Shown: positions 7,757 through 45,850 of the stretch, piece after piece | How positions within the stretch are numbered: the stretch's first letter is position 1 | Layout: each line of letters begins with the position of its first letter | Assembly: GCA_963785755.1 (NCBI GenBank) | Contig: CAWAXG010000068.1 | Span: 46,594-110,593, forward strand | Direction: 5' to 3' | Source of the DNA: an uncultured Acidobacteriota bacterium | Lineage (GTDB): Bacteria > Acidobacteriota > Vicinamibacteria > Vicinamibacterales > 2-12-FULL-66-21 | DNA: 64,000 nucleotides | Notes under the pieces: generated by a model | Told to the model about the DNA's origin: nothing | Database searches by the model: none | The model's input: only the letters and a program-made list of their open reading frames with translations | Program-made: the position numbers and the translations under genes

Positions 7757-7760
7757 GGTT

Positions 7761-9905
7761 TCACTCCACCCAATGCAGCACGTCGCGAATTACGGACCAA
7801 CGCGGCGGCCGGCCGGCCGGGTCCTGGCCAAGTATCCAGTAGCGATAGAGCGCGTCAAGCGTCCCGTCCTTCTTCTTCAAATCGATCCAGGTATTGATGA
7901 AGGTCGCGAACGACTGATCGTGGCGCGCGATGGGATAGGCGAGCGGCACCTTGACGATGCCGGGCTCGGGAACGACGACCGAATATTCAGGGTACATCAG
8001 CGTCCAGGCCGAGCCTCGCTCCGCGGGAAACGCCAGGGCGACGACGTCGGGCGGGAACGCCTTCAACAGCTCGACGAAATCGGTCACCGGACGCAGCGTC
8101 GCCTTGGGCGCGCGGAGGCGCAGTTTCTCGAGGTAGTAGGGAACGTTCGGGACGGCGAGGGTAATCGGTCCCATTGCGCGGATGCCGTCCCAGGTCGCGA
8201 ACCGTTCGCGCGCCGAATCGTGGACGATGAACGCGAGGGTTTCGTCGAGGTAGCCGGTTGACATCAGGGTGCGACTGGCGCGATCGGGGGTGACGACCAC
8301 GCCGGACATCACGATGTCGCAATGACCCTGCGCGAGCGCCCCGTCCAGTCCGTCGCGCGCCACCGGCACCAGATCGAGCCGCAATTGCAGCTCCGCCGCC
8401 AGCCGATGCGCGAGCTCGATGTCGAACCCCACCAGCTCGTTCCGGCCGTTGAAGAACGCGAACGGCAGCGAGTCGGGGAGAAATCCGACCCGCAGGCTGC
8501 CGCGGGCGCGAATCGCCTCGAGCTCGCTCGCGCCATCGGGCGCCGCTGGCGCCGGCGACGCACCGGCAAGCACCACGGCGCTCGTGGTTTCGCGCAGAAG
8601 ATGCATCCCTGCCAGCACTTTGTCCTTCGTGTATGCCTGATCGAGGATACTCGCGAACACGACGCGAGTGCCACCGATGACGCTAACGGTCAAAGCGGCG
8701 GTCACGACCGCGTAGCGTACGAGCCGGCGCCGGTTCCATTCCACGAGTCCCACCATGGCGCAGGTGCCGAGCAGCGCCACCGTCAGCGTGTGCACCGCGG
8801 CGACGAGCGTGCCGAAGCGGGAATTGATGACGCCGCTCGCCAGGAACAGCTGAAACGCATCGGCTGGAATGCGGAAGAGATCGAGGAGGAACGGCACCGC
8901 GACATTGAGACTGCCGAAGAAGGTCACCAGCCCGGTGAGGGCGAGCCGCGGATAGTCCGCCACACTGACGACCGCGTCGGAGAACCACCCGGCGAAGAGC
9001 ACGAAACTGATCGACAACAGCTTCCCGGTGTGAGGGAAGTTGAACGACGCCGGGACGATGACGTCCGGCAGCGACGCGGCGGCCGAATCGGCCGGGCGGA
9101 TCCGTGCGATCAGCGTCTTGCTGGATTCGATCAGCACCGGCAGGACGATGAACAGGTCGCCGGCGACGAAGGCCGTCACCAGCGCATCCCGGGTGAGGCT
9201 GAAGATCTCCCGCACCCGGATCGGCGTCAACGCGGCAACCAGGCCAGGGAGGACCCACAGACTCACCAGGAGCGCGACCAGCACATAGCTGATCAGATAC
9301 ACCTGCAGCCGTCCGAGCTGTTCGAAGCTCAAGGTGCCGGCAGCCGTGGCGGCGATGGCAAAGAGGCCGTACGGCGTGAGCCGCGTGATGAATCGAGTCA
9401 GGCGGGACAGCGCGTCCCCGACGATGCCGAGCACGTCGAGCAGCACCTGTTTCCGTTCGACGCCGATCAGCGCCGCGCCAAGGAGCACCGAGAACAGCAC
9501 GACGGCCGGGACGACGTTGTTCGCGAGTGAATTGAACGGATTCGAGGGAATGTAGAGATCGACGAAGTTGAACGCCGGCCGGCGCTCGACCAGCGTCGTG
9601 CTGAAGAAGCTGGCGTTCTGCACCTGAGGAAACGAGAGCGGAATCGCGAACGTGAAGGCCAGCGCAAGCAGCCACAAGCCGGCCAGGACCGCGCCGGTCT
9701 TGACGCCGAGCACGCGCGCGTCCTCATACCGGAGCCGGCCAAGGCTGCCGACGATCGACACGGTGACGTACGGCAGGACCGTCATCTGCAGCAGCTTGAC
9801 GAAGCCGTCGGCCGCCCATCGGAAGATCGCCGCTCGCTCTCCGAGAAACAGCCCGACGACGACGCCGGTCGCCAGACCCACGAGAATCCGCTTGGAAAAG
9901 GACAT
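7761..9905 (-). CDS. Dicarboxylate/amino acid:cation symporter (DAACS) domain fused to a C-terminal family-3 solute-binding domain
   Basis: The N-terminal ~430 aa are polytopic and resemble the sodium:dicarboxylate symporter family. The C-terminal ~250 aa are SBP_bac_3-like (LRVGFLPDSLPFAFFNGRNELVGFDIELAHRLA, DIVMSGVVVTPDRA). It is a single uninterrupted 714-aa ORF. Confidence 0.8.
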   Translation of the reverse strand: MSFSKRILVGLATGVVVGLFLGERAAIFRWAADGFVKLLQMTVLPYVTVSIVGSLGRLRYEDARVLGVKTGAVLAGLWLLALAFTFAIPLSFPQVQNASFFSTTLVERRPAFNFVDLYIPSNPFNSLANNVVPAVVLFSVLLGAALIGVERKQVLLDVLGIVGDALSRLTRFITRLTPYGLFAIAATAAGTLSFEQLGRLQVYLISYVLVALLVSLWVLPGLVAALTPIRVREIFSLTRDALVTAFVAGDLFIVLPVLIESSKTLIARIRPADSAAASLPDVIVPASFNFPHTGKLLSISFVLFAGWFSDAVVSVADYPRLALTGLVTFFGSLNVAVPFLLDLFRIPADAFQLFLASGVINSRFGTLVAAVHTLTVALLGTCAMVGLVEWNRRRLVRYAVVTAALTVSVIGGTRVVFASILDQAYTKDKVLAGMHLLRETTSAVVLAGASPAPAAPDGASELEAIRARGSLRVGFLPDSLPFAFFNGRNELVGFDIELAHRLAAELQLRLDLVPVARDGLDGALAQGHCDIVMSGVVVTPDRASRTLMSTGYLDETLAFIVHDSARERFATWDGIRAMGPITLAVPNVPYYLEKLRLRAPKATLRPVTDFVELLKAFPPDVVALAFPAERGSAWTLMYPEYSVVVPEPGIVKVPLAYPIARHDQSFATFINTWIDLKKKDGTLDALYRYWILGQDPAGRPPRWSVIRDVLHWVE

Positions 9906-10719: not shown

Positions 10720-12397
10720 GTGGTCATCCACGCGCTCACCACCCGCCCGCGTACGGCCTGGCGCGTCGCCGTTGTCGCCGCCACGCTGGCGATCTGCGCC
10801 CCTCGCCTGTCGGCGCAGGGACAGCCAGCGGCGGGACCCGACCTGTCGCAGATCGTCTCGAGCGCGACGGTCGGCGAACCGTTCGTTCTGGAATACAACA
10901 ATCGCCCCATCACTGTTCTGCGGGCGACCATCCTGTCACGTTCCGCCGCAGACCGGGCCGCAGCCGCGGTCGGGAACATCGAGCGGGCGGTGCGCGAGGG
11001 TGTCCGGGGCCCGGTCACGACGCGTACGCTGCAGGATGTGACCATCGTCTCGATCGGTTCGCGGGACATCTTCGCCATCCTCCCGCAGGACCTCGATCAG
11101 CTCACCGGAGAGACACGGGAGAGCAAGGCCGCGGAAGCCGTGCCGCGCCTCGAGCAGGCGATCACGGAAGCGATCGAGCTGCGAACGCCCCGTCTCCTGC
11201 TCAAGGGTGCGGCCCTGGCCCTTCTGGCGACGGTGCTGTTCGGACTCCTCTTCGTCCTGGCCTGGCGGACATATCGGACCCTGGCCGTGCGGCTGCCGAG
11301 CGGCGCCGAACGGAAGCTCCATCAGCTCGCGGCGGGCAATGTCGCGCTGATCAAGGCGTCGCACGCGTCCGACGCTCCTGAGATTCGCCGTTCGGATCGC
11401 CTTCGTGATCGTGTCGCTGACGCTCACCTACATGTGGCTGACGTTCACCTTACGGCGCTTTCCATATACGCGACCGTGGGGTGAATCACTGCGCGCATTC
11501 CTGATCGAGCGCCTCACTGCGATGGGCCTCATGATCGCCGGCGCGATCCCCAATCTCTTCACCGTGCTGCTGATCGTGCTGCTGACCCGCTTTGCGGTGA
11601 AGCTCGCGCACGCCTTCTTCGACTCGGTCCGGGAAGGACGAGTGGACCTGCCCTATGTCCATCCCGAAACCGCACTGCCGACGCGGCGGATCGTCACCAC
11701 GCTGTTCTGCCTGCTCGGATTGGTCGTGGCTTACCCGTACCTTCCCGGCAGCGGCTCTGACGCCTTCAAGGGCCTGAGCGTGTTCGTCGGACTGGTGCTG
11801 TCGCTCGGCTCGAGCGGGGTCGTCAATCAGTTGATGAGCGGCCTGACGCTCACCTATTCGCGCGCCATGCGTCCGGGGGACTTCGTCCGAATCGGCGAAG
11901 TCGAGGGGACCATCACGCAGCTCGGCGGGCTGTCGACGAAGATCAAGACCCCACGCGGCGAGGAAGTGACGATCCCGAACGCCGTGGTGATGGGGCAGGT
12001 GACGACCAACTTCTCACGCTTCGCCGAGACCGACGGCGTCTACACCGCGACGTCTCTCACCATCGGCTACGACACCCCCTGGCGCCAGGTCCACGCCCTG
12101 CTGCTGCTTGCGGCGGAACGAACGCCAGGGATCCGCTCGCAGCCGAAGCCCGCCGTCAGACAGACCGCGCTGCAGGACTTCTACGTCCAATACACATTGC
12201 TGGTCAGTCTCGAGCAGCCGCATCTTCGCGCGCCGACCCTCGACGCGCTGCATGGCAATATCCAGGATGCGTTCAACGAATACGGCGTCCAGATCATGTC
12301 GCCGAACTACGAGGCCGATCCGGCGGGCCCCAAGGTGGTCCCGCCCGAGCAGTGGTATGCGGCACCCGCCAAGCCGGCGGTCGCCGAGCGCGTGTAG
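10720..12397 (+). pseudogene. Mechanosensitive ion channel (MscS family) with large N-terminal periplasmic domain; one frameshift
   Basis: ORF 10639..11484 holds the signal peptide and periplasmic domain and has an in-frame GTG at 10720. ORF 11405..12397 holds the TM helices and MscS beta-domain (GDFVRIGEVEGTITQLGGLSTKIKTPRGEEVTIPN). They are consecutive. Frame 2 opens at 11351, so the shift lies at about 11351-11380. Confidence 0.8.
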
Positions 12398-24774: not shown

Positions 24775-26266
24775 ATGTCGTCCTTTCGGCGCATGCCCCA
24801 TCACCGTGTTGTGGCCGTCATGCTGACGGTCCTGGCGTTCACGGTCCAGGCACGCGCGCAGCAACCCGCGGCCTCCACCGGCCCGCAGACGCCAACCGAT
24901 GCGGCCGGCTTGTCACGCCTGATTCTCGAGCAGCGGCAGATCCTCGACGCGCAGACTCGTTTGATCGAGGAACTGACGAAGCGGCTCGACGAGACCAGCA
25001 AGACGGTCGCGGAAAGCCAGCGACGCATCGCCGAACTCGAGCAGAACGCATCGGCGTCGGCGCCACAGGTGCAGGAACGGCTCAAGGAGATCGAGCAGTC
25101 CATTCGCGTCCTGCCGGAGCTGGCCGCGAAGGAACTGAAAGAAACCACCGAGTTTCCCGGATCGTTCAAGATTCCTGGATCCGAGGCGTCGATCCGCTTC
25201 GGCGGGCAGGTGCGAACCCTGCTCGGTACGCAACATCGGGGCGCTCGGTACCGAGGATCGGTTCGTCACATCCTCGATCCCGATCGAAGGCACACCCGAA
25301 GCCGGCAAGCCCTCACGGACGACGCTCACGGCGAACCCGAGCCGGCTCGAGACCGACTTTCGAACGCCGACCGCTGTGGGGCCCCTTCGCGCATTTCTCT
25401 CGGGCGATTTCGCCGGCAGCAATCGCAGCTATCGCCTGCGCCATGCGTTCGGGCAGTGGCGGGGATTCCTGATCGGTCACACCTGGTCGGCATTCTCCGA
25501 TCCCGAGGCGGAGCCCGATGGCCTGGACTTCGAAGGACTGAACGCGATTTCGTTGTTCCGCCAGCCTGGGATTCGCTGGACGCATCCGTTCGGCAGCCGC
25601 TACGAGCTTGCGTTCGCGCTCGAGAATCCGTCGCCCGACATCACCGGCGCGTCGGGCGTCAATCAGGTTCCCGACGTCATCGCACGCGTGCGATTCAACG
25701 CCGAGGAGAAGCCTTCCGCCAATCGCATCCTCTTCCGTGGCGGGGGCCATACACAGGCGGCGTTGCTGTTCAGACAGCTGCGCGGCGAGCCGAACGATCT
25801 GCCCAATCACATCCTGTCCACTGGAGGGATCGGCGTCCATTTCAGCGGCCGCCTGCACGCTCCGTGGAGGAGCCAGGATTTTCTCAAGTTCGCGACCGCT
25901 GCCGGAACGGGGATCGGACGGTACATCACCGATCTGGGCACCCTCGGCGGTCAGGATGCCGTTTACGACGCCGAGGGAAATCGGCTCATCGCGCTGCCCG
26001 TCTACTCGACGTACATCGGCTATGAACACTGGTGGACGGAGGCGCTGCGCTCGACCGCGACCTTCGGCGCCGTGTTCGTCGACAACCTCGAGATTCAGGC
26101 GGCCGACGCGCTGCATCAGACCACCCGGGCCAGCTTCAACCTTTCCTGGTCACCGATTCCGAGGATCGATCTGATTGCCGAGTTCCTCTCGGGACGCCGG
26201 GTCAACAAGGATCGCCAGGATGGCCACGCCGGTCAGCTGCAGCTCGGGTGGATTTTTCGATTCTGA
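24775..26266 (+). pseudogene. DcaP-like outer-membrane porin (N-terminal coiled coil + barrel), one frameshift
   Basis: ORF 24775..26025 gives the signal peptide, coiled coil and IRFGGQVRTLL. Frame 2 then continues from 25226 with VRNIGALGTEDRF... through ORF 25376..26266, ending in GWIFRF. The junction is at CTCGGTAC 25222-25229, and deleting one G restores the frame. Confidence 0.8.
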
Positions 26267-26370
26267 AGATTGCCGGCGGGCCGGCCAAATCCACGAGCCA
26301 CTGAGCCCGATCACAAAATGCCGTGATCTCCCCTGACTCCGCGGCGGGTCGATCAATACTCAAGAGTCAT

Positions 26371-26966
26371 ATGGATCCGATGTTCGTTCCCGATGTCGAA
26401 CGCAACCCGCAACCTGGACCCTACCGGGCGCTGATCGAGCAGATGCAGGCGCAAGGCGCCGAGTATCCCCAGATCTGGCACCTCTTCGCCTATCTGCCGT
26501 CGGCGACCGAGCATCTCGCGCGCTTCACGCAGCAGATCCTTCGTGGTCCGGCGCCGCTCAGTCCCGGCCTGCGCGAGCTGATCGCGGCCTATACGTCGCA
26601 GCGCAACCACTGCCCGTTTTGACTGAAGTCGCACGCCGCAGTTGCGGCGGAACTGCTTGGCGATGCCGCGCTCGTGGAGTCGGTCATGACCGACCTCGAG
26701 ACGTCGTCGCTGGACGAGCGGCACAAGGCGCTGTTCCGGTTCATCGACAAGGTGAACCACGATTCGCCGCGAATCACGCACGCCGATCTCGATACCGCGC
26801 GCGCCGCCGGCTGGGACGATGAAGCGCTGTACTTCGCCATCACCGTCTGCGCCCTGTTCAATTTCTACAATCGCTGGATCGATGCGACCGGTGTGCACGC
26901 CCTGTCCGACGAAGCACACCGGCAGGGAGGCAAACGCTCGGCGCAGTACGGTACGTTCGCAGCTGA
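26371..26966 (+). CDS. AhpD/carboxymuconolactone-decarboxylase-like peroxidase-related protein, candidate selenoprotein (TGA 26620-26622 read as Sec); 3' end needs a frame correction
   Basis: ORFs 26323..26622 and 26674..27282 share one frame and are separated only by TGA. The TGA sits where the second Cys of the CxxC motif belongs (NH-C-P-F-TGA-L-K-S-H). A hairpin lies 11 nt downstream. The uncorrected frame runs on to 27282 over the convergent gene. An alternative frame gives ...QYGYVRS-TGA at 26964-26966, which matches the family length of about 195 aa. Confidence 0.7.
26627..26654 (+). promoter_or_regulatory. Candidate bacterial SECIS stem-loop
   Basis: Stem CGCCGC (26634-26639), loop AGTT, stem GCGGCG (26644-26649). 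Extended by C26632:G26650 with A26633 bulged, and by AGT26627-29:ACT26652-54. The upper stem starts exactly 11 nt after the UGA and the loop contains GU. Confidence 0.55.
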
Positions 26967-27004
26967 TCGCGGACCGTTCCGGCTCGGGGCGGTGGCGGAT
27001 CGGT

Positions 27005-28930
27005 TCAGTTCCGAGGCAGCGCGTACACGACGATTCCGATCGGTCCCGAGCCGGCTGGCGGGTTCGGGCCAGGGGCGCCACCGCGTTGTCCGCCGCCCCC
27101 TCGACCACCGGCAGTGGAGGCCGTCACGAGCAGGTACTGGCGGCCGCCAAGCTCGTACATCGACGGCCCGCCCGTCGACAACCCACCGAGCTGCAACTCC
27201 GATAACTGCCGGCCGCTGCTGCTGTCGTAGATGTGCACCTTGCGATCGGCAGCGGTGGCGAACAGGAGTCCTGTTGCCGTGACGATGAGGCCTCCTTTGA
27301 TGCTCGCGGCCGTACCCGTTCCTGACACACCCTGACCGACGAGGCGCAGATCATCGCCGAGCCCGATCTGCCATTTGATCGTGCCTTCGTTGAGATCGTA
27401 GGCCGTCAACGTCGTGTACGGCGGTTTGACGATCGTCGGGTAGAGCCCGAACCCCTCGGTGACGTACCGGCCTTCCTTGACCACGTCCTGCTGGCCACCC
27501 CGTCCGGCGCGCGTCTCGCCCGGTTTCATCAGCCGGATGATCGTGGGAACGTTGAAGCCGATGACATAGACGCTGCCGTCCGACGGGTGGCCGGCGGTGC
27601 TGCCCCAGTTCGATCCGCCCTGATTGCCCGGCATGTGGATCACGTCCTCGAACCCAATCGGTGTGAATGGGCCGTCGTTCCTGGCCTTCAGGATGCGCTG
27701 CCTGAACTGCTCGCGCTCCTCGGGCGTCAGGATGTACGGATTCAGATCCTCCACCGTGAACTTCTGCCGCGAGAAGGGGGGCGGTGCCGTCGGAAACGGC
27801 TGCGTCGGCCAGAGGCTCTCACCGGGCACCGTCGTGCTCTGCGGCACGGGGCGCTCCTCGATCGGCCAGATCGGCTGACCGGTGACTCGATCGAACACGT
27901 ACAGGTAGCCGGTCTTGCTGGCCATCGCGACTACGTCAACCGTCCGGCCGTTGTGGCGGATGGTCGTCAGCTGCGGAGAGGAATTGTTGTCGAGGTCCCA
28001 GATGTCATGGTGGACGGTCTGGAAGTGCCAGAGGCGTTTGCCGGTCCTGACATCGAGGGCGATGAGGCAGTCGGCGAAGAGGTTGGCTCCTTTCCGGTTG
28101 CCGCCGTAGAAGTTGTACTTGGCGCTGCCGGTCGGCACGTAGATGATGCCGCGCTTCTCGTCGATCGACTGCTCACCCCAGTTGTTCGCGCCGCCGACGG
28201 TCTTCCAGGCATCCTCGGGCCAGGTGTCGTAGCCGAACTCGCCGGGGCGGGGAACGGTGTGAAAGGTCCACACCAGCGCGCCCGTGCGTACGTCGAACGC
28301 GCGAATGTCTCCCGGCGCCGACGCATACTCCTGGTTGGTCGCCGATCCCATGACGATGAGATTCTCGAAGACCCGTCCCGGTGTCCGGGTCTGCTGGTTG
28401 ATCGTCGCCGGATCGCGGTCCAGACCGACCCGGAGATCGACCTTCCCGTTGACGCCGAACGAGGTTATCGGCTCGCCGGTGAGCGCATCGAGCTCCTGGA
28501 GGAAGTTGCTCGCGCTGAAGATCAGCCGGCGATCCTTCCCGTCCTTGCTCTCCCAGTAGTTCACGCCGCGGCTGTTGAAGTTCTCCACACCCTCGTGGAT
28601 CCAGATCTGCTTGCCGGTTGCCGCGTCGAGCGCAACGAAGGACCCGTTCGGCCCGCGGCCGTAGACCGTGCCGCGTACGACGAGAGGATTGAAGTCGGTC
28701 TGGCCGGCCGGATAGACCCAGGCGACCTCCAGCCGGTTGACGTTCGCCTTGGTGATCTCGGTTGCGGCGACGAACCGTGAGCTATCCGCACCACCGGCGT
28801 AATCGCGCCATTCGCGTGGGCCCTGACCGGACACCGCCAGTCCGGACGCGACCGCCAGCGCCAGGATCATGGCTCCCTTTCCGAAACCGGCCGTACTCCG
28901 TGGTGTGGACAAATCCCGTTCACTGCCCAT
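27005..28930 (-). CDS. PQQ-dependent dehydrogenase (quinoprotein, beta-propeller)
   Basis: Signal peptide. Repeated W-containing propeller motifs (LEVAWVY, ALDAATGKQIWIH, ALDVRTGKRLWHF, AYDLNEGTIKWQ). Confidence 0.85.
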   Translation of the reverse strand: MGSERDLSTPRSTAGFGKGAMILALAVASGLAVSGQGPREWRDYAGGADSSRFVAATEITKANVNRLEVAWVYPAGQTDFNPLVVRGTVYGRGPNGSFVALDAATGKQIWIHEGVENFNSRGVNYWESKDGKDRRLIFSASNFLQELDALTGEPITSFGVNGKVDLRVGLDRDPATINQQTRTPGRVFENLIVMGSATNQEYASAPGDIRAFDVRTGALVWTFHTVPRPGEFGYDTWPEDAWKTVGGANNWGEQSIDEKRGIIYVPTGSAKYNFYGGNRKGANLFADCLIALDVRTGKRLWHFQTVHHDIWDLDNNSSPQLTTIRHNGRTVDVVAMASKTGYLYVFDRVTGQPIWPIEERPVPQSTTVPGESLWPTQPFPTAPPPFSRQKFTVEDLNPYILTPEEREQFRQRILKARNDGPFTPIGFEDVIHMPGNQGGSNWGSTAGHPSDGSVYVIGFNVPTIIRLMKPGETRAGRGGQQDVVKEGRYVTEGFGLYPTIVKPPYTTLTAYDLNEGTIKWQIGLGDDLRLVGQGVSGTGTAASIKGGLIVTATGLLFATAADRKVHIYDSSSGRQLSELQLGGLSTGGPSMYELGGRQYLLVTASTAGGRGGGGQRGGAPGPNPPAGSGPIGIVVYALPRN

Positions 28931-30737: not shown

Positions 30738-30814
30738 TGGTCGGGATGACAGGATTCGAACCTGCGACCCCCTGACCCCCAGTCAGGTGCGCTACCAGGC
30801 TGCGCTACATCCCG
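30738..30814 (-). tRNA. tRNA-Pro (anticodon GGG)
   Basis: The reverse complement folds as a cloverleaf: acceptor CGGGATG/CATCCCG, D-arm GCGC-AGCCTGGTA-GCGC, anticodon arm CCTGA-CTGGGGG-TCAGG, T-arm with GTTCGAAT, and an encoded CCA. 77 nt. Confidence 0.95.
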
Positions 30815-37926: not shown

Positions 37927-39129
37927 CTACTTGCTCGTCATCGGCGCGAGGAGCGCCTCGGCTCGATCCAGGATGATTGCCGCGAGCACCGTCTTCGGTC
38001 CGCTGGCGAAGGGCTCGATGCCGTCACGGCTGATGATCGTCGCGGCGTTCAGGTCCGAGTCGAACCCGACGCCTTCGGTGGAGATGTCGTTCGCGACGAT
38101 CAGATCGGCGCCTTTGCGGAGCAGCTTCTGCCGGCCGCGTTCGACCGGATCGCCGCTTTCCGCCGCGAACCCGACGAGCACGGGTCTGGCGCGGTCCGCT
38201 CGCGCTTTACCGAGCGCCGCGAGAATGTCCGTGGTACGGACGAGCGACAAGTCGAGCGGGCCGTCGGTCTTTTCGATCTTGCCGGGGCGCCGCTCGGGCG
38301 TATAGTCCGCCACCGCCGCGGCCATGATCACCATGTCGGCCTCGACGGCGTGCCGCTGGACGGCGGTATTCATCTGCTCGGCATTCCTGACGCGCAGCAG
38401 CTCGACGCCGGCCGGCGGCGGCAGCGTCGCTGGCCCCGAGACGAGAATGACCCGCGCGCCGCGCCGGACTGCTTCCGCCGCGATCGCGTATCCCATCTTG
38501 CCGCTCGATCGATTCCCGATGTACCGCACGTCGTCGATATCTTCGTAGGTAGGCCCGGCGGTCACGACGACGAGGCGTCCAAGGAGCGAGCCGGCGGGCT
38601 GAAGCACGCGTTCGGCGGCTTCGACGATCTCGTCCGGCTCCGCGAGCCGGCCTTTGCCGATCCAGCCGCAGGCGAGATAACCGGCGCCGGGCTCGACGAA
38701 TCGCACGCCACGGGCCGCCAACGTCGCCAGGTTGGCCCGCACGGCCTCGTGCTCGAGCATGTTGGTATTCATGGCCGGCGCCATGAGCACTGGTGCGCGC
38801 GTCGCCAGATACAGCGCGCTCAGGAAGTCGTCGGCAATGCCGTTGGCGAACTTGCCGATGATGTTCGCCGTCGCCGGCGCGACCAGCAGCAGGCTGATGT
38901 CGGTGGCGAGCGAGATGTGCTCGATGTCCGCGTTGGCGCCGGGGCTCCACTGGCTCGTGACGACCCGGCGGCGGGTAATCGCTTCGAACGTCAGCTCACC
39001 GACGAAGCGCCGGGCCGATCGGGTCATGATCGCGGCGACGTCGTGCCCCCGCTTCTGCAGCCCGCGGGCGACCTCGATCGCCTTGTACGCGCCGATGCCT
39101 CCCGAAACCCCCAACCCTACGAGCGCCAT
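37927..39129 (-). CDS. coaBC: Bifunctional phosphopantothenoylcysteine decarboxylase / phosphopantothenate-cysteine ligase
   Basis: N-terminal flavoprotein domain (GVSGGIGAYKA, PAMNTNM) and C-terminal CoaB domain (ITAGPT-like VTAGPTYEDIDDVRYIGNRSSGKMG). Confidence 0.95.
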   Translation of the reverse strand: MALVGLGVSGGIGAYKAIEVARGLQKRGHDVAAIMTRSARRFVGELTFEAITRRRVVTSQWSPGANADIEHISLATDISLLLVAPATANIIGKFANGIADDFLSALYLATRAPVLMAPAMNTNMLEHEAVRANLATLAARGVRFVEPGAGYLACGWIGKGRLAEPDEIVEAAERVLQPAGSLLGRLVVVTAGPTYEDIDDVRYIGNRSSGKMGYAIAAEAVRRGARVILVSGPATLPPPAGVELLRVRNAEQMNTAVQRHAVEADMVIMAAAVADYTPERRPGKIEKTDGPLDLSLVRTTDILAALGKARADRARPVLVGFAAESGDPVERGRQKLLRKGADLIVANDISTEGVGFDSDLNAATIISRDGIEPFASGPKTVLAAIILDRAEALLAPMTSK

Positions 39130-39197
39130 ACTCCGCCTCCGGCCCCTCCCGATGTTGGCAATGCCGACGATCGTGCCGATGCGTTGCGTACAGCCGT

Positions 39198-39380
39198 CTA
39201 TTCGTCCTCGGCAGGCTGCAGCCTGCGGACGTGGCCCTGCTTGATCTCGAGCGCCGCCAGACGGGCCGGCTTCTCGGGACCATCGACCCGCGGCGTGCAG
39301 CCACGAAGCAACTGCCGCGCGCGAGCGCCGGCGAGAATCACGAATTCGAACGCGTTCGTCACTTCCGTCTTGTCGGCCAT
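39198..39380 (-). CDS. rpoZ: DNA-directed RNA polymerase subunit omega
   Basis: 60-aa protein MADKTEVTNAFEFVILAGARARQLL. ATG 39380 lies 3 nt after the gmk stop. Conserved gmk-rpoZ order. Confidence 0.85.
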   Translation of the reverse strand: MADKTEVTNAFEFVILAGARARQLLRGCTPRVDGPEKPARLAALEIKQGHVRRLQPAEDE

Positions 39381-39382
39381 TT

Positions 39383-40021
39383 TCAACCCTTCTGCTGGAA
39401 TGTCTTGACGATTCTCTCCGCTTCCGGCCGCGCCGAGCGGAGGCGCGTTCGTTCCGCGAGAACGATTGCCCGCAACCGTTCCACGCACGCCTCGAGCTCG
39501 TCGTTCACGATCACGTAGTCGTACTCGTCGAACGCCGCGACTTCCGCGCGCGCCGTCTCGAGACGGCGCTGCATGGCATCTTCCGGATCCTTGCTGCGTC
39601 CTCGCAACCGCTGCTCGAGCACCGCGAACGATGGCGGCATGACGAAAACGGCGACGGTGCCCGTGAACCGTGTACGGACCTGCCGAGCGCCCTGTACGTC
39701 GATGACGAGCACGAGGTCCCGGCCCGTGGCGAGGTGACACTCCGCATCGGCCGCAGACGTCCCGTAGAGGTTGCCGAACACGTCCGCCCATTCCAGAAAG
39801 GCGTCCGCCGCAATCATCTCCTCGAAGCGAGAACGGGATACGAAATTATAGTCCACGCCGTCGCTCTCGCCCGGCCGGGCCGCCCGGGACGTGTACGACC
39901 GGGACAGAGCCAGATCCGAAACGACGTGCACGAGACGCTCGACCACCGTGGTCTTGCCGGTGCCCGAGGGCGCCGACACGACGAAGAGAAGACCGCGCCG
40001 GGACGGCCCCTCACTCGACAT
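39383..40021 (-). CDS. gmk: Guanylate kinase
   Basis: P-loop SAPSGTGKTT. YTSRAARPGESDGVDYNFVS. EWADVFGNLYGT. Confidence 0.95.
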   Translation of the reverse strand: MSSEGPSRRGLLFVVSAPSGTGKTTVVERLVHVVSDLALSRSYTSRAARPGESDGVDYNFVSRSRFEEMIAADAFLEWADVFGNLYGTSAADAECHLATGRDLVLVIDVQGARQVRTRFTGTVAVFVMPPSFAVLEQRLRGRSKDPEDAMQRRLETARAEVAAFDEYDYVIVNDELEACVERLRAIVLAERTRLRSARPEAERIVKTFQQKG

Positions 40022-40910
40022 TCTGCACCTGTTCCCGCATCTTCTCGAGTTCCGCCTTCAGCGTGACGATCAGCTCCGACACCGCCGGTCCCTCGGCCTT
40101 CGAGCCGGTCGTGTTCACTTCCCGGTTCATTTCCTGCAGCAGAAAGTCCAGCTTCCGGCCGCACGGTTCCGGCGAGTCGGTCAGCGCCTGCCAGTGTTCC
40201 AGGTGCCCCCTGAACCGGACCACCTCTTCCGTGATATCGGATCGGCCGACGAACCGCGCAATCTCCTGCGCCACCAGCGTTTCGTCCACCATCGCATCCG
40301 CCCGCAGCTCGCGGACGCGATCGCCGAGCCGGACGCGGAGCGTCTCGAGCGCCTGCTCCGCGCAGGCGGCAACCTTGTCGAACAGCTCCGCCAGCAGCCT
40401 CCGCCGCGCATCGAGCTCGGCGCGCAAGAAGCCGCCTTCGCGGGACCGCATCGCATCCAGATCGTCGAGCGCGGCTCCCAGTGCTTCCTCTACCCGCGAT
40501 ATCAGGCGAGCCGTCTGCTCGTCATCGCCGCCGCGCTCCTCCACTTTCTCGCGGATGGCCAGCGCCTGCGGAAAGCGCAGGAGGTCGCCGGGTGTCATCG
40601 TGCCCTGGATGTGCCCCTGCTCGCGCGCGCGGTCGAGAGCCGCACCCAACGCCTGCAGAAACGGCTCGTTCAGCTCGACCTCCAGGCCTGGGACCCGGCG
40701 CTGTTGAACCGTGACCGTCACTTCGACCCGGCCCCGCGCGACACGCTGCTGGACGAGCGACCGGAGCTTCGACTCGACCGGCGCCAGCATCTGCGGCAAC
40801 CGCAACTGCAGGTCCAGAAACCGGTGATTCACCGCACGGATGGTGACCCCGATGGTCGCCGCGTCGTCATCACGCGTCAGCGACGAGAAGCCGGTCATGC
40901 TCTTGATCAT
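40011..40910 (-). CDS. yicC: YicC-family stress-induced protein
   Basis: MIKSMTGF start (ATG 40910). SVNHRFLD-like AVNHRFLDLQLRLP. C-terminal EMNREVNTTGSKA and EKMREQVQNVE. Confidence 0.9.
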   Translation of the reverse strand: MIKSMTGFSSLTRDDDAATIGVTIRAVNHRFLDLQLRLPQMLAPVESKLRSLVQQRVARGRVEVTVTVQQRRVPGLEVELNEPFLQALGAALDRAREQGHIQGTMTPGDLLRFPQALAIREKVEERGGDDEQTARLISRVEEALGAALDDLDAMRSREGGFLRAELDARRRLLAELFDKVAACAEQALETLRVRLGDRVRELRADAMVDETLVAQEIARFVGRSDITEEVVRFRGHLEHWQALTDSPEPCGRKLDFLLQEMNREVNTTGSKAEGPAVSELIVTLKAELEKMREQVQNVE

Positions 40911-40929
40911 GCGTCGTGTGCGTTCCTGC

Positions 40930-42702
40930 CTACTTGACCGGCGCCGGCGCTTCCGGTTCTCGCTCGAATTTCTGCCTCGCGTACAGCTTCCCATAGACGC
41001 TGTCCGGATTCGCGAGCAGCTCGTCATGGCGTCCGATCTCCGCCACCCGCCCGCGTTCCAGTGCAACCACCACGTCGGCCCGGCGGACCGTCGAGAGCCG
41101 ATGGGCGATGACGAACGCGGTGCGGTTCCGCATCAGATTCGCGAGCGCGTCCTGAACCAGCTGCTCGGACTCGGCGTCCAGCGCGGACGTCGCCTCGTCC
41201 AGGATCAGAATCGGCGAGTTCTTGAGCAGCGCGCGGGCGATCGCGAGGCGCTGCCGCTGCCCGCCCGACAGCTTCTGGCCGCGCTCGCCGATTCGCGTTT
41301 CGTAGCCGTGCGGCTGTTGAAGGATGAACTCGTGCGCGTGAGCCGCGCACGCCGCCGCCTCGATCTCCCGGCTCGAGGCGGCCGGGGATCCGTAGGCGAT
41401 GTTGAGCGCGATGGTGTCGTCGAACAGCACCGTTTCCTGAGTGACGATCCCGACCTGCGCCCGAAGCGAACGCAGCGTGACGTCGCGGATGTCGACGTCG
41501 TCGATCAGCACCGCGCCCGAGGTCACGTCGTAGAAGCGCGGAATGAGGTTGACCAGCGTGGTCTTGCCGGCGCCGCTCAGGCCGACGATGGCCACGACCT
41601 GCCCGGCTCCGACACGGAACGAAACGTCGCGCAGAATCGGCGTCGCCGCGTCGTCGTCGTAGGCAAACGCCACGTTTCGGAACTCGACGCTCCGGCGAAC
41701 GGGCGCCAGCGCCGCCGCGCCTTCACGCTCCTTGACCTCGGTATGCCGATCGAGGAGGTGAAAGATACGCTCCGAGGCCGCCATCGCCTGCTGGAGGTTC
41801 GTGTTGACGCGGCTCAGCTTCTTGATCGGCGTGTACATCATGAACGCCGCGAAGATGAACGCAAGGAAGACCCCCTGCGACGTCTCGCCGCCGGAGATGC
41901 GCGTGCTCCCGTACCAGATCAGCGCGACGACCGCGAGGCCACCGAGAAACTCCATCAGCGGCGGCAGCAGCGCGACGGTGCTCGTGATCTTGAGGTTCGT
42001 GCGATACAGCAGCTCCGCGGCGCTCGCGAACCGGCGGCTCTCGTGCGCCTCGGTGCCGAAGCCCTTGACGATGCGGTGGCCGGTGAACGCCTCGGCCGCG
42101 AGGTGCGAAAGGTGCTCGAGCTGCTCCTGGCTCCTCCGGGTGCTGCGGCGGACCCGCTGGCCGAGCCGTACCAGCGGATAGACCACGATGGGCGCGCCAG
42201 TCACGAACACCAGGGCGAGGTTGTGATCCCAATAGAACAACAGAGAGGCGTATCCGAAGAGCGCGAGACCCTCGCGCAGGAGATCGCCGGCCGTCTCGGA
42301 TACCGCCTGTTGAACCTGGGACACGTCGTTGGTGATTCGCGACATCAGCTGCCCGGTGGAACGGCGGCTGAAGAACGCGGCCGACTGATCGAGGATGTGC
42401 TTGAACAGCTGGTTGCGAAGGTCGCGCACCACGCGCTGACCGATGTCGGTCATCAGGTAAGCCGACAGATACGCGCCGAGCCCTTTGCCCAGATACGCAA
42501 TCAGCACCGCCACCGACCAGAACATCAGATCCTGAGGCAGCGTCGGGGACTGGGTCGGCTGCAGGCCGTCGTCGATGATCGGCTTGATCAGGAATGCCAC
42601 GCCTGCGGATGCGACGGCATACAACAGCATCGCCAGGAAGGCGACGGCGAACCGTCCCTTGTAGCGGCTGGTGTAGCCGAGCAGGCGAGGAAGCGGATTC
42701 AC
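40930..42702 (-). CDS. ABC transporter, fused permease/ATPase (MsbA-like lipid/polysaccharide exporter)
   Basis: Six-TM N-terminal domain. Walker A GLSGAGKTT, signature LSGGQRQR, Walker B ILILDEATSALD. Confidence 0.9.
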   Translation of the reverse strand: MNPLPRLLGYTSRYKGRFAVAFLAMLLYAVASAGVAFLIKPIIDDGLQPTQSPTLPQDLMFWSVAVLIAYLGKGLGAYLSAYLMTDIGQRVVRDLRNQLFKHILDQSAAFFSRRSTGQLMSRITNDVSQVQQAVSETAGDLLREGLALFGYASLLFYWDHNLALVFVTGAPIVVYPLVRLGQRVRRSTRRSQEQLEHLSHLAAEAFTGHRIVKGFGTEAHESRRFASAAELLYRTNLKITSTVALLPPLMEFLGGLAVVALIWYGSTRISGGETSQGVFLAFIFAAFMMYTPIKKLSRVNTNLQQAMAASERIFHLLDRHTEVKEREGAAALAPVRRSVEFRNVAFAYDDDAATPILRDVSFRVGAGQVVAIVGLSGAGKTTLVNLIPRFYDVTSGAVLIDDVDIRDVTLRSLRAQVGIVTQETVLFDDTIALNIAYGSPAASSREIEAAACAAHAHEFILQQPHGYETRIGERGQKLSGGQRQRLAIARALLKNSPILILDEATSALDAESEQLVQDALANLMRNRTAFVIAHRLSTVRRADVVVALERGRVAEIGRHDELLANPDSVYGKLYARQKFEREPEAPAPVK

Positions 42703-44423: not shown

Positions 44424-45718
44424 GGCCGCCCCATCGAGTAATACGTGAACCCGTGCGAGCGGATCTGATCGGGATTGTAGATGTTGCGTCCGTCGAAGAT
44501 GATGGGGCCGCGCATGAGCTTTCGCATACGCGCGTGATCGGGTTCGCGGAATTCGTTCCACTCGGTCACGATCACGAGGGCATCGGCGCCAGTCAGCGCG
44601 GCATAGCTGTTGTTCGCGAAGGTGATGTCGGAGCCGAAGATCGTCTTTGCGACTTTCATGGCTTCGGGATCGTAGGCCTGCACGGTCGCCCCGGCGGCCA
44701 GCAGTCCTTTGATGAGCGGCACCGACGGAGCTTCGCGCATGTCATCGGTGCGCGGCTTGAACGCGAGCCCCCACACGGCGATCCGCTTCCCCTTCAGCGA
44801 TCCGAAATGCGTCTTCAACTTCTCGAGGAGCCGCAGTTTCTGCCGGTCGTTGACCGATTCGACGGCCTGCAGAATCTTGAAGTCATAGCTCCTGGTGGCC
44901 GCGAACTGCAGCATCGCCTTCACGTCCTTGGGAAAGCAGCTGCCGCCGTAGCCGACGCCCGGGAATAGGAACGACGGACCGATCCGGCGATCGGAGGCCA
45001 CCGCACGGCGGACCTGATCGACGTTGGCGCCAACCGCTTCGCAGACATTCGCGACTTCGTTCATGAACGAGATCCGGGTCGCCAGCATGGCGTTCGCGGC
45101 GTACTTGCACAGCTCCGCGCTGGCGCAGTCCATCAGCATGATTGGCGCGCCGGTCCGTGTGAATGGGGAATAGAGCTCCTGCATCAGCTCCGCCGCCCGG
45201 GGATCCTCGGCGCCGATCACCACGCGATCCGGCTTCATGAAATCGTCGATGGCGGCGCCCTGCTTCAGGAACTCGGGGTTGCTGACGACACTGAAGGGGT
45301 GCGTTGTCTCGCGGCGGACGACTTCCCGCACCTTGGCGGCCGTGCCGACAGGGACCGTGCTCTTGTTGACGATGACCTTGTAGCCATTCATCGCCCGGGC
45401 CAGGTCGCGAGCCACTCCCATGACGTGCTGCAAATCGGCGGAACCGTCCTCGCCGGTCGGGGTTCCCACGGCGATGAAAATGATCTGGGAGCTGCGGACG
45501 CCGCGATCGAGGGCGGTCGTGAAGGTGAGGCGCTTTTCGGCGGTGTTACGGCGGACCAGCTCCTCGAGTCCCGGCTCGTAAATCGGAATCTTGCCGCGCT
45601 GCAGCGCGCGGACCTTGGCTGGCTCCTTGTCCACGCAGATGACCGTGTTGCCGTTCTCCGCCAGGCAGGCCCCTGCCACGAGCCCGACATATCCGCTTCC
45701 CACCACCGCGATTTTCAT
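44420..45718 (-). CDS. ugd: UDP-glucose 6-dehydrogenase
   Basis: MKIAVVGSGYVGLV Rossmann motif. Catalytic GGSCFPKD. GTGA overlap with the galE start. Confidence 0.95.
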   Translation of the reverse strand: MKIAVVGSGYVGLVAGACLAENGNTVICVDKEPAKVRALQRGKIPIYEPGLEELVRRNTAEKRLTFTTALDRGVRSSQIIFIAVGTPTGEDGSADLQHVMGVARDLARAMNGYKVIVNKSTVPVGTAAKVREVVRRETTHPFSVVSNPEFLKQGAAIDDFMKPDRVVIGAEDPRAAELMQELYSPFTRTGAPIMLMDCASAELCKYAANAMLATRISFMNEVANVCEAVGANVDQVRRAVASDRRIGPSFLFPGVGYGGSCFPKDVKAMLQFAATRSYDFKILQAVESVNDRQKLRLLEKLKTHFGSLKGKRIAVWGLAFKPRTDDMREAPSVPLIKGLLAAGATVQAYDPEAMKVAKTIFGSDITFANNSYAALTGADALVIVTEWNEFREPDHARMRKLMRGPIIFDGRNIYNPDQIRSHGFTYYSMGRP

Positions 45719-45850
45719 TCGTGCCGTCTCTCCCCAGTGTGCAAATCCTTAAAACTAGCACAGCAGCAAAAACATAGTCAAGCTATTGAAGAGCAAGGAG
45801 TTGCCGTCGTCCCGCGGAGCTCAGGACCACTGTGGTACGATGCCCGCCGC

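What the first reader, a model, noticed from the sequence alone, without database searches (positions are those of the whole stretch)
26371..26966. In-frame TGA replacing the second Cys of the CxxC motif in an AhpD/CMD-like protein, with a SECIS-like hairpin 11 nt downstream: candidate selenoprotein
The ORF track shows two fragments, 26323..26622 and 26674..27282. Both are in the same frame (coordinates congruent to 1 mod 3), and TGA 26620-26622 is the only stop between them. Reading through gives ...LIAAYTSQRNH-C-P-F-[TGA]-L-K-S-H-AAVAAELLGD... In the carboxymuconolactone-decarboxylase/AhpD-like peroxidase-related family, the redox centre is C-x-x-C-x-x-x-H at exactly this position. The TGA therefore sits on a catalytic Cys column (CxxU).

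Exactly 11 nt after the TGA is a perfect hairpin, CGCCGC-AGUU-GCGGCG (26634-26649), with GU in the loop. It is extendable through a bulged A and an AGU/ACU lower stem (26627-26654). This matches the geometry reported for the E. coli fdhF SECIS, where the upper stem-loop begins 11 nt from the UGA.

Gene callers would report two hypothetical fragments or a pseudogene. No selA/selB/selC/selD is visible in this window.
Basis: partly seen in the sequence, partly recalled or inferred. Interest (0 to 1): 0.8.

Follow-up and report, generated by a model that had tools for sequence, protein, structure and literature searches.

The report
AhpD-like selenoprotein gene with SECIS hairpin
The in-frame TGA is almost certainly a genuine selenocysteine codon in a peroxidase-related (AhpD-like) redox enzyme of a soil Acidobacteriota bacterium, but this enzyme family has been known to contain selenocysteine since 2005, so it is a correct but ordinary find.

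Summary
ATG 26371 opens a reading frame with one internal stop, TGA 26620-26622. Read through, the protein passes the NCBIfam cut-off for TIGR01926 (peroxidase-related enzyme). The TGA aligns with the second Cys of CxxCxxxH in Cys-containing homologues.

- All 80 best genome relatives (all but two labelled Acidobacteriota) and 40 metagenome relatives carry TGA at this codon.
- The part after the TGA shows the same codon-position diversity as the part before it.
- The hairpin CGCCGC-NGUN-GCGGCG sits 11 nt after the TGA in all of them. It is held at synonymous sites: 0-0.26 bit versus 1.36 elsewhere.
- The hairpin is absent from 39 Cys forms, including 13 that encode the same HAAVAAE peptide.
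- Loop positions 1 and 4 covary perfectly (A..U 89, G..C 31).

AhpD-like CxxU selenoproteins are already catalogued: Sargasso Sea 2005, GOS 2008, and a 2026 review listing TIGR01926 CxxU. This is therefore a new member of a known kind.

Two caveats apply. No selA, selB, selD or tRNA-Sec lies in the window, so that test remains open. This copy also lacks one base at 26950-26951, which breaks the last four codons. Two other genes in the window are split in the same way, so an indel-prone assembly is likely.

The parts
26371..26966 (+). AhpD-like (TIGR01926) selenoprotein gene. As in all relatives it encodes about 198 aa. It needs UGA read-through at codon 84 and, in this copy, one restored base at 26950-26951.
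   Evidence: TIGR01926 scores 93.2 bits against a cut-off of 81.8. Pfam CMD matches. Identity to 80 genome relatives is 73-88% aa and 71-84% nt. The start MDPMF aligns with MKPMF/MEPMF of homologues.
26575..26577 (+). Glu69 codon. It lies 12 residues before Cys81, the position of the proton-relay Glu in AhpD (Glu118 in M. tuberculosis, Glu36 in PA0269).
   Evidence: The column is invariant in alignment A1. Spacing and role are taken from PMC3141380.
26611..26613 (+). Cys81 codon (TGC), the first residue of the C-P-F-U redox motif.
   Evidence: TGC or TGT in 82 of 82 Sec-type sequences. It aligns with the first Cys of CxxC.
26620..26622 (+). UGA codon 84, predicted selenocysteine. It replaces the second Cys of CxxC.
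   Evidence: TGA in 122 of 122 Sec-type relatives. Cys (TGC/TGT) sits in the same column in 39 Cys forms and in PDB relatives.
26632..26634 (+). His88 codon (CAC) of the CxxUxxxH motif. Its first base can pair with G26650 and its last base opens the SECIS stem.
   Evidence: His is invariant. CAC occurs in 79 of 82. The C13-G31 pair is kept in 78 of 79.
26634..26649 (+). Core SECIS hairpin. The 6-bp G+C stem is 26634-26639 with 26644-26649. The apical AGUU is 26640-26643: 26640 and 26643 form a covarying R-Y pair, and G26641-U26642 lie at the apex. The hairpin lies inside the codons for H-A-A-V-A-A-E.
   Evidence: 96-100% of sequences pair at each stem position. Third-position entropy at stem codons is 0-0.26 bit, against a mean of 1.36 elsewhere. 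The hairpin is absent from Cys forms (Fisher p = 1e-24). Loop positions 1 and 4 covary A..U 89, G..C 31, mixed 0. The stem-loop starts 11 nt after the UGA, as in E. coli fdhF.
26627..26654 (+). Possible extended SECIS: the AGU/ACU lower stem, a small internal loop and a bulged A26633. It is only weakly supported.
   Evidence: Pairs 9-34 and 10-33 are unpaired in 11 and 14 of 79 sequences. RNAalifold keeps only the 6-bp core.
26950..26951 (+). Site of a 1-nt deletion in the Gly194 codon (GG-TAC where relatives have GGN TAC). It shifts the frame five codons before the native stop.
   Evidence: All 81 relatives end GY[VA]R[SK]* 112-122 codons after the TGA. The window alone runs 219 codons.
26964..26966 (+). 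Native stop codon (TGA) of the gene, reached only in the restored frame (…G Y V R S *).
   Evidence: DNA comparison with L002-L012.

Best explanation
Positions 26371-26966 hold a gene for an AhpD-like thiol/selenol oxidoreductase (NCBIfam TIGR01926, 'peroxidase-related enzyme', CMD fold). Its active site is Cys81-Pro-Phe-Sec84-x-x-x-His88, with Glu69 as the relay residue.

Shown by comparative data: UGA 26620-26622 is translated, not used as a stop.

Inferred mechanism: a SelB-type elongation factor carrying Sec-tRNA(Sec) binds the mRNA hairpin that starts 11 nt downstream. This hairpin is a 6-bp G+C stem plus a covarying R-Y pair, presenting an apical G-U. Binding delivers selenocysteine to the ribosome while the UGA is in the A site.

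Inferred function: by analogy with AhpD, the selenolate at position 84 is the attacking nucleophile and Cys81 resolves the selenenyl-sulfide. The enzyme would reduce a peroxiredoxin partner or a peroxide or disulfide substrate.

The copy in this window also carries a 1-nt deletion five codons before its stop. This is most probably an assembly error, because two other genes in the window are split in the same way.
For: Family and motif:
- TIGR01926 scores 93.2 bits against a cut-off of 81.8.
- PDB relatives 6K40, 3C1L, 2OYO and 2PFX match at E = 1e-16 to 1e-17, with CxxC aligned to C-P-F-[TGA].
- In the homologue alignment A1, most Cys-type forms have CxxC in that column; one has TQFC. Among the top 120 protein hits, 90 are CxxC, 4 are TxxC, and 21 are 'CxxW'.
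- The W in one of these (P0002) is a TGA in the DNA.

Translation past the UGA:
- TGA is present in 80 of 80 genome loci from different species, in L001, and in 40 metagenome loci.
- In all 81 relatives of the genome set (L001-L081) the frame stays open for 112-122 codons to a conserved GYVR[SK] end.
- Nucleotide diversity at codon positions 1/2/3 is 0.19/0.15/0.48 upstream and 0.18/0.14/0.46 downstream.
- 35 of 81 relatives end the same gene with TGA. Most high-GC3 ORFs in the window also end with TGA. UGA is therefore a normal stop in these organisms.

SECIS:
- Stem codons GCC, GCG and GCG are used in 79/82, 82/82 and 80/81 sequences. Their third-position entropy is 0.26, 0 and 0.10 bit. The mean for 31 other conserved four-fold codons is 1.36 bit, with a minimum of 0.65.
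- In 39 Cys forms the same codons show 1.7-2.0 bit. None has six Watson-Crick pairs. 13 of them encode the identical HAAVAAE/HAAIAAE peptide without conserving the hairpin: none has six Watson-Crick pairs and one, L092, pairs at all six positions with G·U.
- 114 of 122 Sec forms pair at all six positions, against 3 of 39 Cys forms (p = 1e-24).
- Loop ends covary A..U 89, G..C 31, mixed 0, with repeated switches between nearest neighbours.
- The closing pair C-G becomes U-A in three sequences.
- The G at loop position 2 is invariant in the 82-sequence alignment and present in every loop variant seen in all 122.
- E. coli fdhF has the same 11-nt spacing and a GGUC loop. GGUC is also the second commonest loop here.

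Lineage uses Sec:
- A deiodinase-like gene with UGA in GSYT-U-PPF lies next to the homologue in L058.
- Acidobacteria are listed with selenoproteins in PMC1794560.

Family already known as a selenoprotein.
Against: - No selA, selB, selD or tRNA-Sec was found in the 64-kb window or in about 1.3 Mb of flanks of relatives. The Sec machinery of this particular genome is therefore unverified.
- The hairpin alone is not statistically unusual in this GC-rich sequence.
- The six stem pairs show almost no compensatory change, so their support is conservation rather than covariation.
- No Rfam family matched.
- The E. coli-type bulged U17 is absent.
- This copy has a frameshift at 26950-26951. If real, it replaces the conserved C-terminal YVRS with a 112-residue extension. 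No read data are available to decide.
Confidence: 0.88

Rival explanations
1. The family is a selenoprotein family, but the copy in this window is a decaying pseudogene. On this view the 1-nt deletion at 26950-26951 is real and the product is C-terminally aberrant or unstable.
For: The window is the only one of 82 sequences with this frameshift. Gly194 is invariant and Tyr195 nearly invariant in homologues. The extended frame overlaps the convergent PQQ-dehydrogenase gene.
Against: The rest of the gene has no further defect and keeps all catalytic residues and the SECIS intact. Two other genes in the same 64 kb are split by single frameshifts: the DcaP porin near 25230 and an MFS/TLC transporter near 7100. 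That pattern is typical of residual indel errors in an assembly. The missing base falls in a GGN-T context, which could be a short homopolymer.
Confidence: 0.25
2. The UGA is read through, but not as selenocysteine. Candidates are Cys delivered by a tRNA(Sec)-like tRNA(Cys) with a SelB-like factor, or an acidobacterial allo-tRNA suppressor.
For: Such tRNAs exist. SelC*-type tRNA(Cys) may act as an opal suppressor in other phyla, and allo-tRNAs are frequent in Acidobacteria (PMC5389517). Nothing here identifies the inserted residue chemically.
Against: SelC* genes were not reported from Acidobacteria. The family, motif and position (CxxU in TIGR01926) are those of catalogued selenoproteins. The hairpin has the SelB-type geometry and apical GU. 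A relative carries a second classical selenoprotein gene.
Confidence: 0.04
3. The TGA is a nonsense mutation or a base-calling error (TGC to TGA), and the hairpin is a chance by-product of the Ala-rich peptide in GC-rich DNA.
For: A 6-bp hairpin follows about 5% of TGA trinucleotides in the window by chance. The assembly shows other defects.
Against: The same TGA is present in 122 of 122 related sequences from independent assemblies. The downstream half is under purifying selection. The hairpin is maintained at synonymous sites only where TGA is present.
Confidence: 0.01
4. UGA is reassigned genome-wide (code 4 or 25, Trp or Gly), as the JGI translations with W suggest.
For: 21 of the top 120 database proteins show W at this position.
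Against: The W is a gene-caller choice on short contigs. The DNA has TGA, and 35 of 81 relatives terminate this very gene with TGA. Most well-supported ORFs in the window end in TGA. Only one in-frame TGA in the whole window has coding signal on both sides.
Confidence: 0.01

Closest known systems
AhpD-like selenoprotein family: 'AhpD-like protein' / 'AhpD-like 1', COG2128, NCBIfam TIGR01926, motif CxxU (Zhang, Fomenko & Gladyshev 2005, PMC1088965; Zhang & Gladyshev 2008, PMC2398784; 2026 review PMC13188914)
   Same: It matches the same NCBIfam model above cut-off. It has the same CxxU motif, with Sec replacing the second Cys. A bacterial SECIS with a conserved G in the apical loop lies immediately downstream. 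Many Cys homologues exist.
   Different: The described members came mostly from marine metagenomes and a few Firmicutes or Deltaproteobacteria. This one belongs to a large soil Acidobacteriota clade (Vicinamibacterales, Bryobacterales, Terriglobia), in which every one of the 80 best species-level genomes has the Sec form. This copy has a 3' frameshift.
Mycobacterium tuberculosis AhpD and structural relatives (PA0269 / 2O4D; D. radiodurans DR1765 / 6K40; Mlr4105 / 3C1L; 2OYO, 2PFX)
   Same: It has the helix-turn-helix active site with Glu-(12 residues)-Cys-x-x-Cys-x-x-x-His, here Glu69, Cys81, Sec84 and His88. The expected role is as a thiol-dependent peroxidase or peroxiredoxin reductant. A DR1765 mutant is H2O2-sensitive.
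   Different: Sequence identity is low: 6K40 aligns over residues 58-175. The middle relay residue is Phe rather than His or Tyr. The second Cys is Sec. No ahpC or other fixed partner gene is adjacent: neighbours vary, with a TonB-dependent-receptor-like gene upstream in 17 of 80 loci.
E. coli fdhF SECIS
   Same: The stem-loop begins 11 nt after the UGA. Both have a 4-nt apical sequence containing G-U. The variant GGUC found in 31 of 122 sequences is identical to the fdhF loop.
   Different: There is no bulged U17 in the upper stem. The stem is a perfect 6-bp G+C helix, one base shorter on the 5' side, so the GU lies at positions 22-23 rather than 23-24. The lower stem is poorly conserved.
NF041238 AhpD_rel_CFYUT and NF041047 GSU3128-family (seleno)proteins
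   Same: They are CMD-fold proteins with CxxU.
   Different: The scores here are far below their cut-offs: 39.5 against 175 and 16.2 against 110. The window protein is not a member.

Membership tests
NCBIfam TIGR01926 peroxidase-related enzyme (AhpD-like protein) | Whole-protein HMM score above the curated cut-off | tested here: met
   93.2 bits against 81.8, covering profile positions 6-172 of 178. Scored with Cys in place of Sec.
NCBIfam TIGR01926 peroxidase-related enzyme (AhpD-like protein) | Active-site pattern Glu-x12-Cys-x-x-Cys/Sec-x-x-x-His | tested here: met
   Glu69, Cys81, TGA84 and His88 are present. Glu and His are invariant and Cys81 nearly so. The pattern is as described in PMC3141380.
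NCBIfam TIGR01926 peroxidase-related enzyme (AhpD-like protein) | All-helical AhpD/CMD fold | tested here: inconclusive
   Only sequence matches to solved AhpD-like structures were obtained (6K40, 3C1L, 2OYO, 2PFX; E = 1e-16 to 1e-17). No structure was predicted.
Bacterial selenoprotein gene | In-frame UGA aligned with Cys in homologues | tested here: met
Bacterial selenoprotein gene | UGA and downstream ORF conserved across species under purifying selection | tested here: met
   TGA in 122 of 122 sequences. Codon-position diversity is equal upstream and downstream.
Bacterial selenoprotein gene | SECIS hairpin directly downstream, with a G in the apical loop, conserved beyond coding constraint | tested here: met
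   The apical loop starts 17 nt after the UGA.
Bacterial selenoprotein gene | selA, selB, selC (tRNA-Sec) and selD present in the same genome | not testable with these tools
   None was found in the window or in the flanks of 80 relatives. The rest of the genome is not available. A relative (L058) has a second selenoprotein gene.
Bacterial selenoprotein gene | Selenium actually incorporated at the UGA | not testable with these tools
   This needs 75Se labelling or mass spectrometry.
E. coli fdhF-type SECIS | Upper stem-loop starting 11 nt after the UGA | tested here: met
   Window 26634; fdhF read from NC_000913.3.
E. coli fdhF-type SECIS | G-U in the apical loop | tested here: met
   G is invariant in the 82-sequence alignment and at loop position 2 in every loop variant among all 122. 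U follows it in 116 of 122, where the loop is AGUU or GGUC.
E. coli fdhF-type SECIS | Bulged U (U17) in the upper stem | tested here: not met
   The 6-bp stem is uninterrupted. The only candidate bulge is A26633, below the stem.
Rfam RNA families | Match to any curated covariance model | tested here: not met
   Only chance-level hits (E above 2) in 26400-26900.

The most novel reading that the evidence does not exclude
The UGA in this acidobacterial clade may not be decoded as selenocysteine by the canonical SelA/SelB/SelC/SelD pathway. It could instead be decoded by a Sec-like recoding system that inserts another residue, for example Cys through a tRNA(Sec)-like tRNA and a SelB-like factor, or an allo-tRNA suppressor of the kind common in Acidobacteria. 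The conserved 7-bp/GU hairpin would then be its recognition element.
Probability: 0.04. Interest if true: 0.6.

Novelty: new member of a known kind. Interest (0 to 1): 0.27.

Why it matters
For annotation, the two fragments 26323-26622 and 26674-27282 should be merged into one selenoprotein gene, 26371-26966, with a translation exception at 26620-26622. The gene should also be flagged for a probable indel at 26950-26951. The same correction applies to a large clade of soil Acidobacteriota genomes. There, gene callers split the gene or, in JGI data, translate the UGA as Trp.

Biologically, the result indicates that abundant soil Acidobacteriota (Vicinamibacterales, Bryobacterales, Terriglobia) spend selenium on an AhpD-like redox enzyme. 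It also gives a well-sampled natural SECIS: 122 sequences plus matched Cys-form controls. The constraint on synonymous sites and an R-Y covariation flanking the apical GU are unusually clear in this set.

It does not reveal a new kind of system.

Tried and rejected
1. Sequencing error or nonsense mutation at the TGA. Rejected because of universal conservation.

2. Genome-wide UGA reassignment, suggested by W in JGI proteins. Rejected because TGA is the normal stop, including for this gene in 35 relatives.

3. Hairpin forced by the HAAVAAE peptide. Rejected because 13 Cys forms encode the same peptide with free synonymous sites; none has six Watson-Crick pairs, though one (L092) pairs at all six positions with G·U.

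4. Folding energy as evidence. It is uninformative (z = 0.47).

5. Rfam. No SECIS or other family matched.

6. Search for selA, selB and selD (tblastn with the E. coli proteins) and tRNA-Sec (ARAGORN) in the window and in 1.3 Mb of relatives' flanks. Nothing was found. This says little, because so small a part of each genome was available.

7. Identifying the source contig by exact look-up of the neighbouring PQQ dehydrogenase. It is not on record.

8. Synteny. There is no nucleotide similarity to relatives outside the gene and no universally conserved neighbour, so no operon partner could be inferred.

9. Other selenoprotein genes in the window. A scan for in-frame TGA with coding signal on both sides found only this one.

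10. Suspected frameshifts in the glycosyltransferase cluster 45299-48875 and in coaBC/gmk/yicC 37927-41066. These proved to be separate intact genes.

Full report
**What is in the sequence**

ATG 26371 opens a + strand frame that reads MDPMFVPDVERNPQ…RELIAAYTSQRNHCPF, then TGA at 26620-26622, then LKSHAAVAAELLGD…. This TGA is the only stop between the two mechanical ORFs 26323-26622 and 26674-27282. The hairpin CGCCGC-AGTT-GCGGCG occupies 26634-26649 and starts exactly 11 nt after the TGA.

Taken alone, the hairpin is unremarkable. A 60-nt fold has z = 0.47 against dinucleotide shuffles. In this 65% GC window, 4.7% of all TGA trinucleotides are followed by a perfect 6-bp hairpin within 8-20 nt.

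**What the protein is**

With Cys substituted for the stop, the product scores 93.2 bits on NCBIfam TIGR01926 'peroxidase-related enzyme', against a cut-off of 81.8. It also matches Pfam CMD. The nearest solved structures are AhpD-like proteins: 6K40 (D. radiodurans DR1765), 3C1L, 2OYO and 2PFX, at E = 1e-16 to 1e-17. In these the query's C-P-F-[TGA] aligns with C-x-x-C.

In an alignment with 21 homologues the TGA column is the second Cys of CxxCxxxH in most of the Cys-type forms; one has TQFC. Glu69 and His88 are invariant and Cys81 is nearly invariant. Glu-x12-Cys-x-x-Cys-x-x-x-His is the AhpD proton-relay arrangement: Glu118, Cys130, Cys133 and His137 in M. tuberculosis, and Glu36, Cys48, Cys51 and His55 in PA0269 (PMC3141380).

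**The TGA is conserved and translated**

The closest database proteins, all from JGI, show Trp at this column. On the DNA of one of them the codon is TGA, so the W is a gene-caller choice.

A scan of one genome per species returned 80 loci. All but two are labelled Acidobacteriota (Vicinamibacterales, Bryobacterales, Terriglobia); the two exceptions are probably mis-binned contigs. They share 73-88% amino-acid identity with the window protein, and every one has TGA at this codon. A metagenome scan seeded with Cys forms added 40 more TGA forms and 35 Cys forms; with four Cys forms fetched earlier this makes 39.

In all 81 relatives of the genome set (L001-L081), the frame remains open for 112-122 codons after the TGA and ends at a conserved GY[VA]R[SK]-stop. 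Nucleotide diversity at codon positions 1, 2 and 3 is 0.19/0.15/0.48 before the TGA and 0.18/0.14/0.46 after it. The downstream half is therefore selected as protein.

UGA is not reassigned. 35 of the 81 relatives end this same gene with TGA. Most well-supported ORFs in the window end in TGA. This is the only in-frame TGA in the window with coding signal on both sides.

**The hairpin is a selected RNA element tied to the TGA**

Across 82 Sec-type sequences, the codons forming the stem are almost frozen: GCC in 79/82, GCG in 82/82 and GCG in 80/81. Their third-position entropy is 0.26, 0 and 0.10 bit. For 31 other conserved four-fold-degenerate codons of the same gene, the mean is 1.36 bit and the minimum 0.65. 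Each of the six stem pairs is formed in 96-100% of sequences, and most of the substitutions seen are wobble-compatible.

The control is decisive. In 39 Cys forms the same codons have 1.7-2.0 bit of third-position entropy, and none has six Watson-Crick pairs. 13 of them encode the identical peptide HAAVAAE or HAAIAAE without conserving the hairpin; none has six Watson-Crick pairs, and one (L092) pairs at all six positions with G·U. All six positions pair in 114 of 122 Sec forms against 3 of 39 Cys forms (Fisher p = 1e-24).

True covariation appears in two places.
- The closing pair C-G is U-A in three metagenome sequences.
- Loop positions 1 and 4 are A..U in 89 sequences and G..C in 31, and never mixed. 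The state differs between nearest neighbours in 16 of 122 cases, which implies repeated double changes. The p-value of 2e-29 is not corrected for phylogeny.

This suggests a seventh pair with the dinucleotide G-U at the apex. That G is invariant in the 82-sequence alignment and is present in every loop variant seen in all 122 sequences.

**Comparison with the E. coli element**

Read directly from the K-12 genome, fdhF has TGA, then 11 nt, then GGTTGCA-GGTC-TGCACC. The spacing is the same, and the GGUC loop is identical to the second commonest loop here. A review states that the upper stem-loop (nt 15-31), the bulged U17 and the apical G23/U24 are the SelB determinants (PMC8659212). The acidobacterial element lacks the bulged U, and its GU lies one position closer to the UGA. 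No Rfam model matched.

**Selenocysteine machinery**

No selA, selB, selD or tRNA-Sec was found in the window or in 1.3 Mb flanking the relatives. The rest of the genome could not be reached, so this defining feature is untested.

Indirect support comes from two sources. A Bryobacterales relative (L058) carries, next to its AhpD-like gene, a deiodinase-like gene (PF00837, 101 bits). It has an in-frame TGA in the classical GSYT-U-PPF motif. Acidobacteria are also listed among selenoprotein-containing phyla (PMC1794560).

A minor rival is read-through by a tRNA(Sec)-like tRNA(Cys) or an allo-tRNA suppressor. The latter are frequent in Acidobacteria (PMC5389517). Nothing here identifies the inserted residue chemically.

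**A defect in this copy**

Compared with every relative, the window lacks one base in the Gly194 codon: GG-TAC at 26950-26954, where relatives have GGN TAC. As the sequence stands, the frame runs to 27282 and overlaps the convergent PQQ dehydrogenase gene.

Two other genes in the window are split by single frameshifts. One is a DcaP-type porin (24775-26266, shift near 25230). The other is an MFS/TLC-like transporter (6409-7789, minus strand, shift near 7100). Other suspected cases turned out to be separate intact genes.

Residual indel errors in the assembly are the likeliest cause. A real inactivating mutation cannot be excluded without reads.

**Function and context**

No neighbour is conserved across the clade. 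A TonB-dependent-receptor-like gene lies upstream in 17 of 80 loci, and a PQQ dehydrogenase is adjacent in 5 loci, including the window. No peroxiredoxin partner can be named.

By analogy with AhpD, Sec84 is inferred to be the attacking nucleophile and Cys81 the resolving residue. A mutant of the nearest characterised structural relative, DR1765, is H2O2-sensitive (PMC8945050).

**Novelty**

AhpD-like proteins with CxxU were reported as selenoproteins from the Sargasso Sea in 2005: 27 sequences, COG2128 (PMC1088965). They were the fourth most abundant family in the GOS data: 299 sequences, 'AhpD-like 1' (PMC2398784). A 2026 review lists 'AhpD-like protein, TIGR01926, CxxU' (PMC13188914), and a 2026 database has the family as a browsable entry (PMC13326102).

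The finding is therefore correct, and a new member of a known kind. What is added here is the extent of the Sec form in soil Acidobacteriota and a well-controlled description of its compact SECIS.

Noticed in passing
window 26950-26951: There is a one-base deletion in the Gly194 codon of the selenoprotein gene, relative to all 81 relatives compared. The native stop would be TGA 26964-26966; the frame as sequenced runs to 27282.
   Followed up: yes
window 24775-26266 (+): A DcaP-type outer-membrane porin gene (coiled-coil N-terminus, C-terminal F) is split between two frames. The switch lies near 25230, from 'FGGQVRT' in one frame to 'IGALGTEDRFVTSSIP…' in another.
   Followed up: partly
window 6409-7789 (-): An MFS/TLC-like transporter is split into two overlapping ORFs in different frames. 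The N-terminal half matches TLC profile positions 6-110 and the C-terminal half 401-488. The shift lies near 7079-7140, in a G+C-rich loop. With the two items above, this points to an indel-prone assembly or several pseudogenes.
   Followed up: partly
L058 10611-11357 (-), TGA at 11025-11027: In a Bryobacterales MAG, a deiodinase-like thioredoxin-fold gene (PF00837, 101 bits) lies convergent and adjacent to the AhpD-like selenoprotein gene. It has an in-frame TGA in VFGSYT-U-PPF and a small hairpin with a GGU loop about 13 nt downstream.
   Followed up: partly
proteins P0001-P0041 (JGI), e.g. L001 909-911: JGI gene calls for this family translate the TGA as Trp (CPFW). 21 of the top 120 database hits show this. 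It hides the selenocysteine and could mislead motif analyses.
   Followed up: yes
L087 about 2001-2597 (Cys form, CPFC): One Cys-containing homologue keeps a near-SECIS hairpin, CGUCGC-CAUU-GCGGCG, at the same place. It may be a relic of a recent Sec-to-Cys conversion, or a pre-SECIS state.
   Followed up: no
proteins P0006, P0010, P0015, P0016, P0019: Homologues of 323-336 residues carry an extra N-terminal segment resembling the C-terminal half of the same domain. They have Cys, not Sec, at the motif (sequences seen for P0006 and P0010 only).
   Followed up: no
L009, L015: Two loci with the acidobacterial-type gene come from MAGs labelled Bifidobacteriaceae and Cyanobacteriota. These are probably mis-binned contigs.
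   Followed up: no
L002-L081, upstream of the gene: A TonB-dependent-receptor-like gene of about 1100-1200 residues (CarboxypepD_reg + OMP_b-brl_4) lies immediately upstream on the same strand in 17 of 80 loci, and also upstream of two Cys forms (L086, L087). In the window the upstream gene is also an outer-membrane protein (DcaP).
   Followed up: partly
window 30738-30814 (-): tRNA-Pro (GGG) is the only tRNA gene in the window.
   Followed up: no
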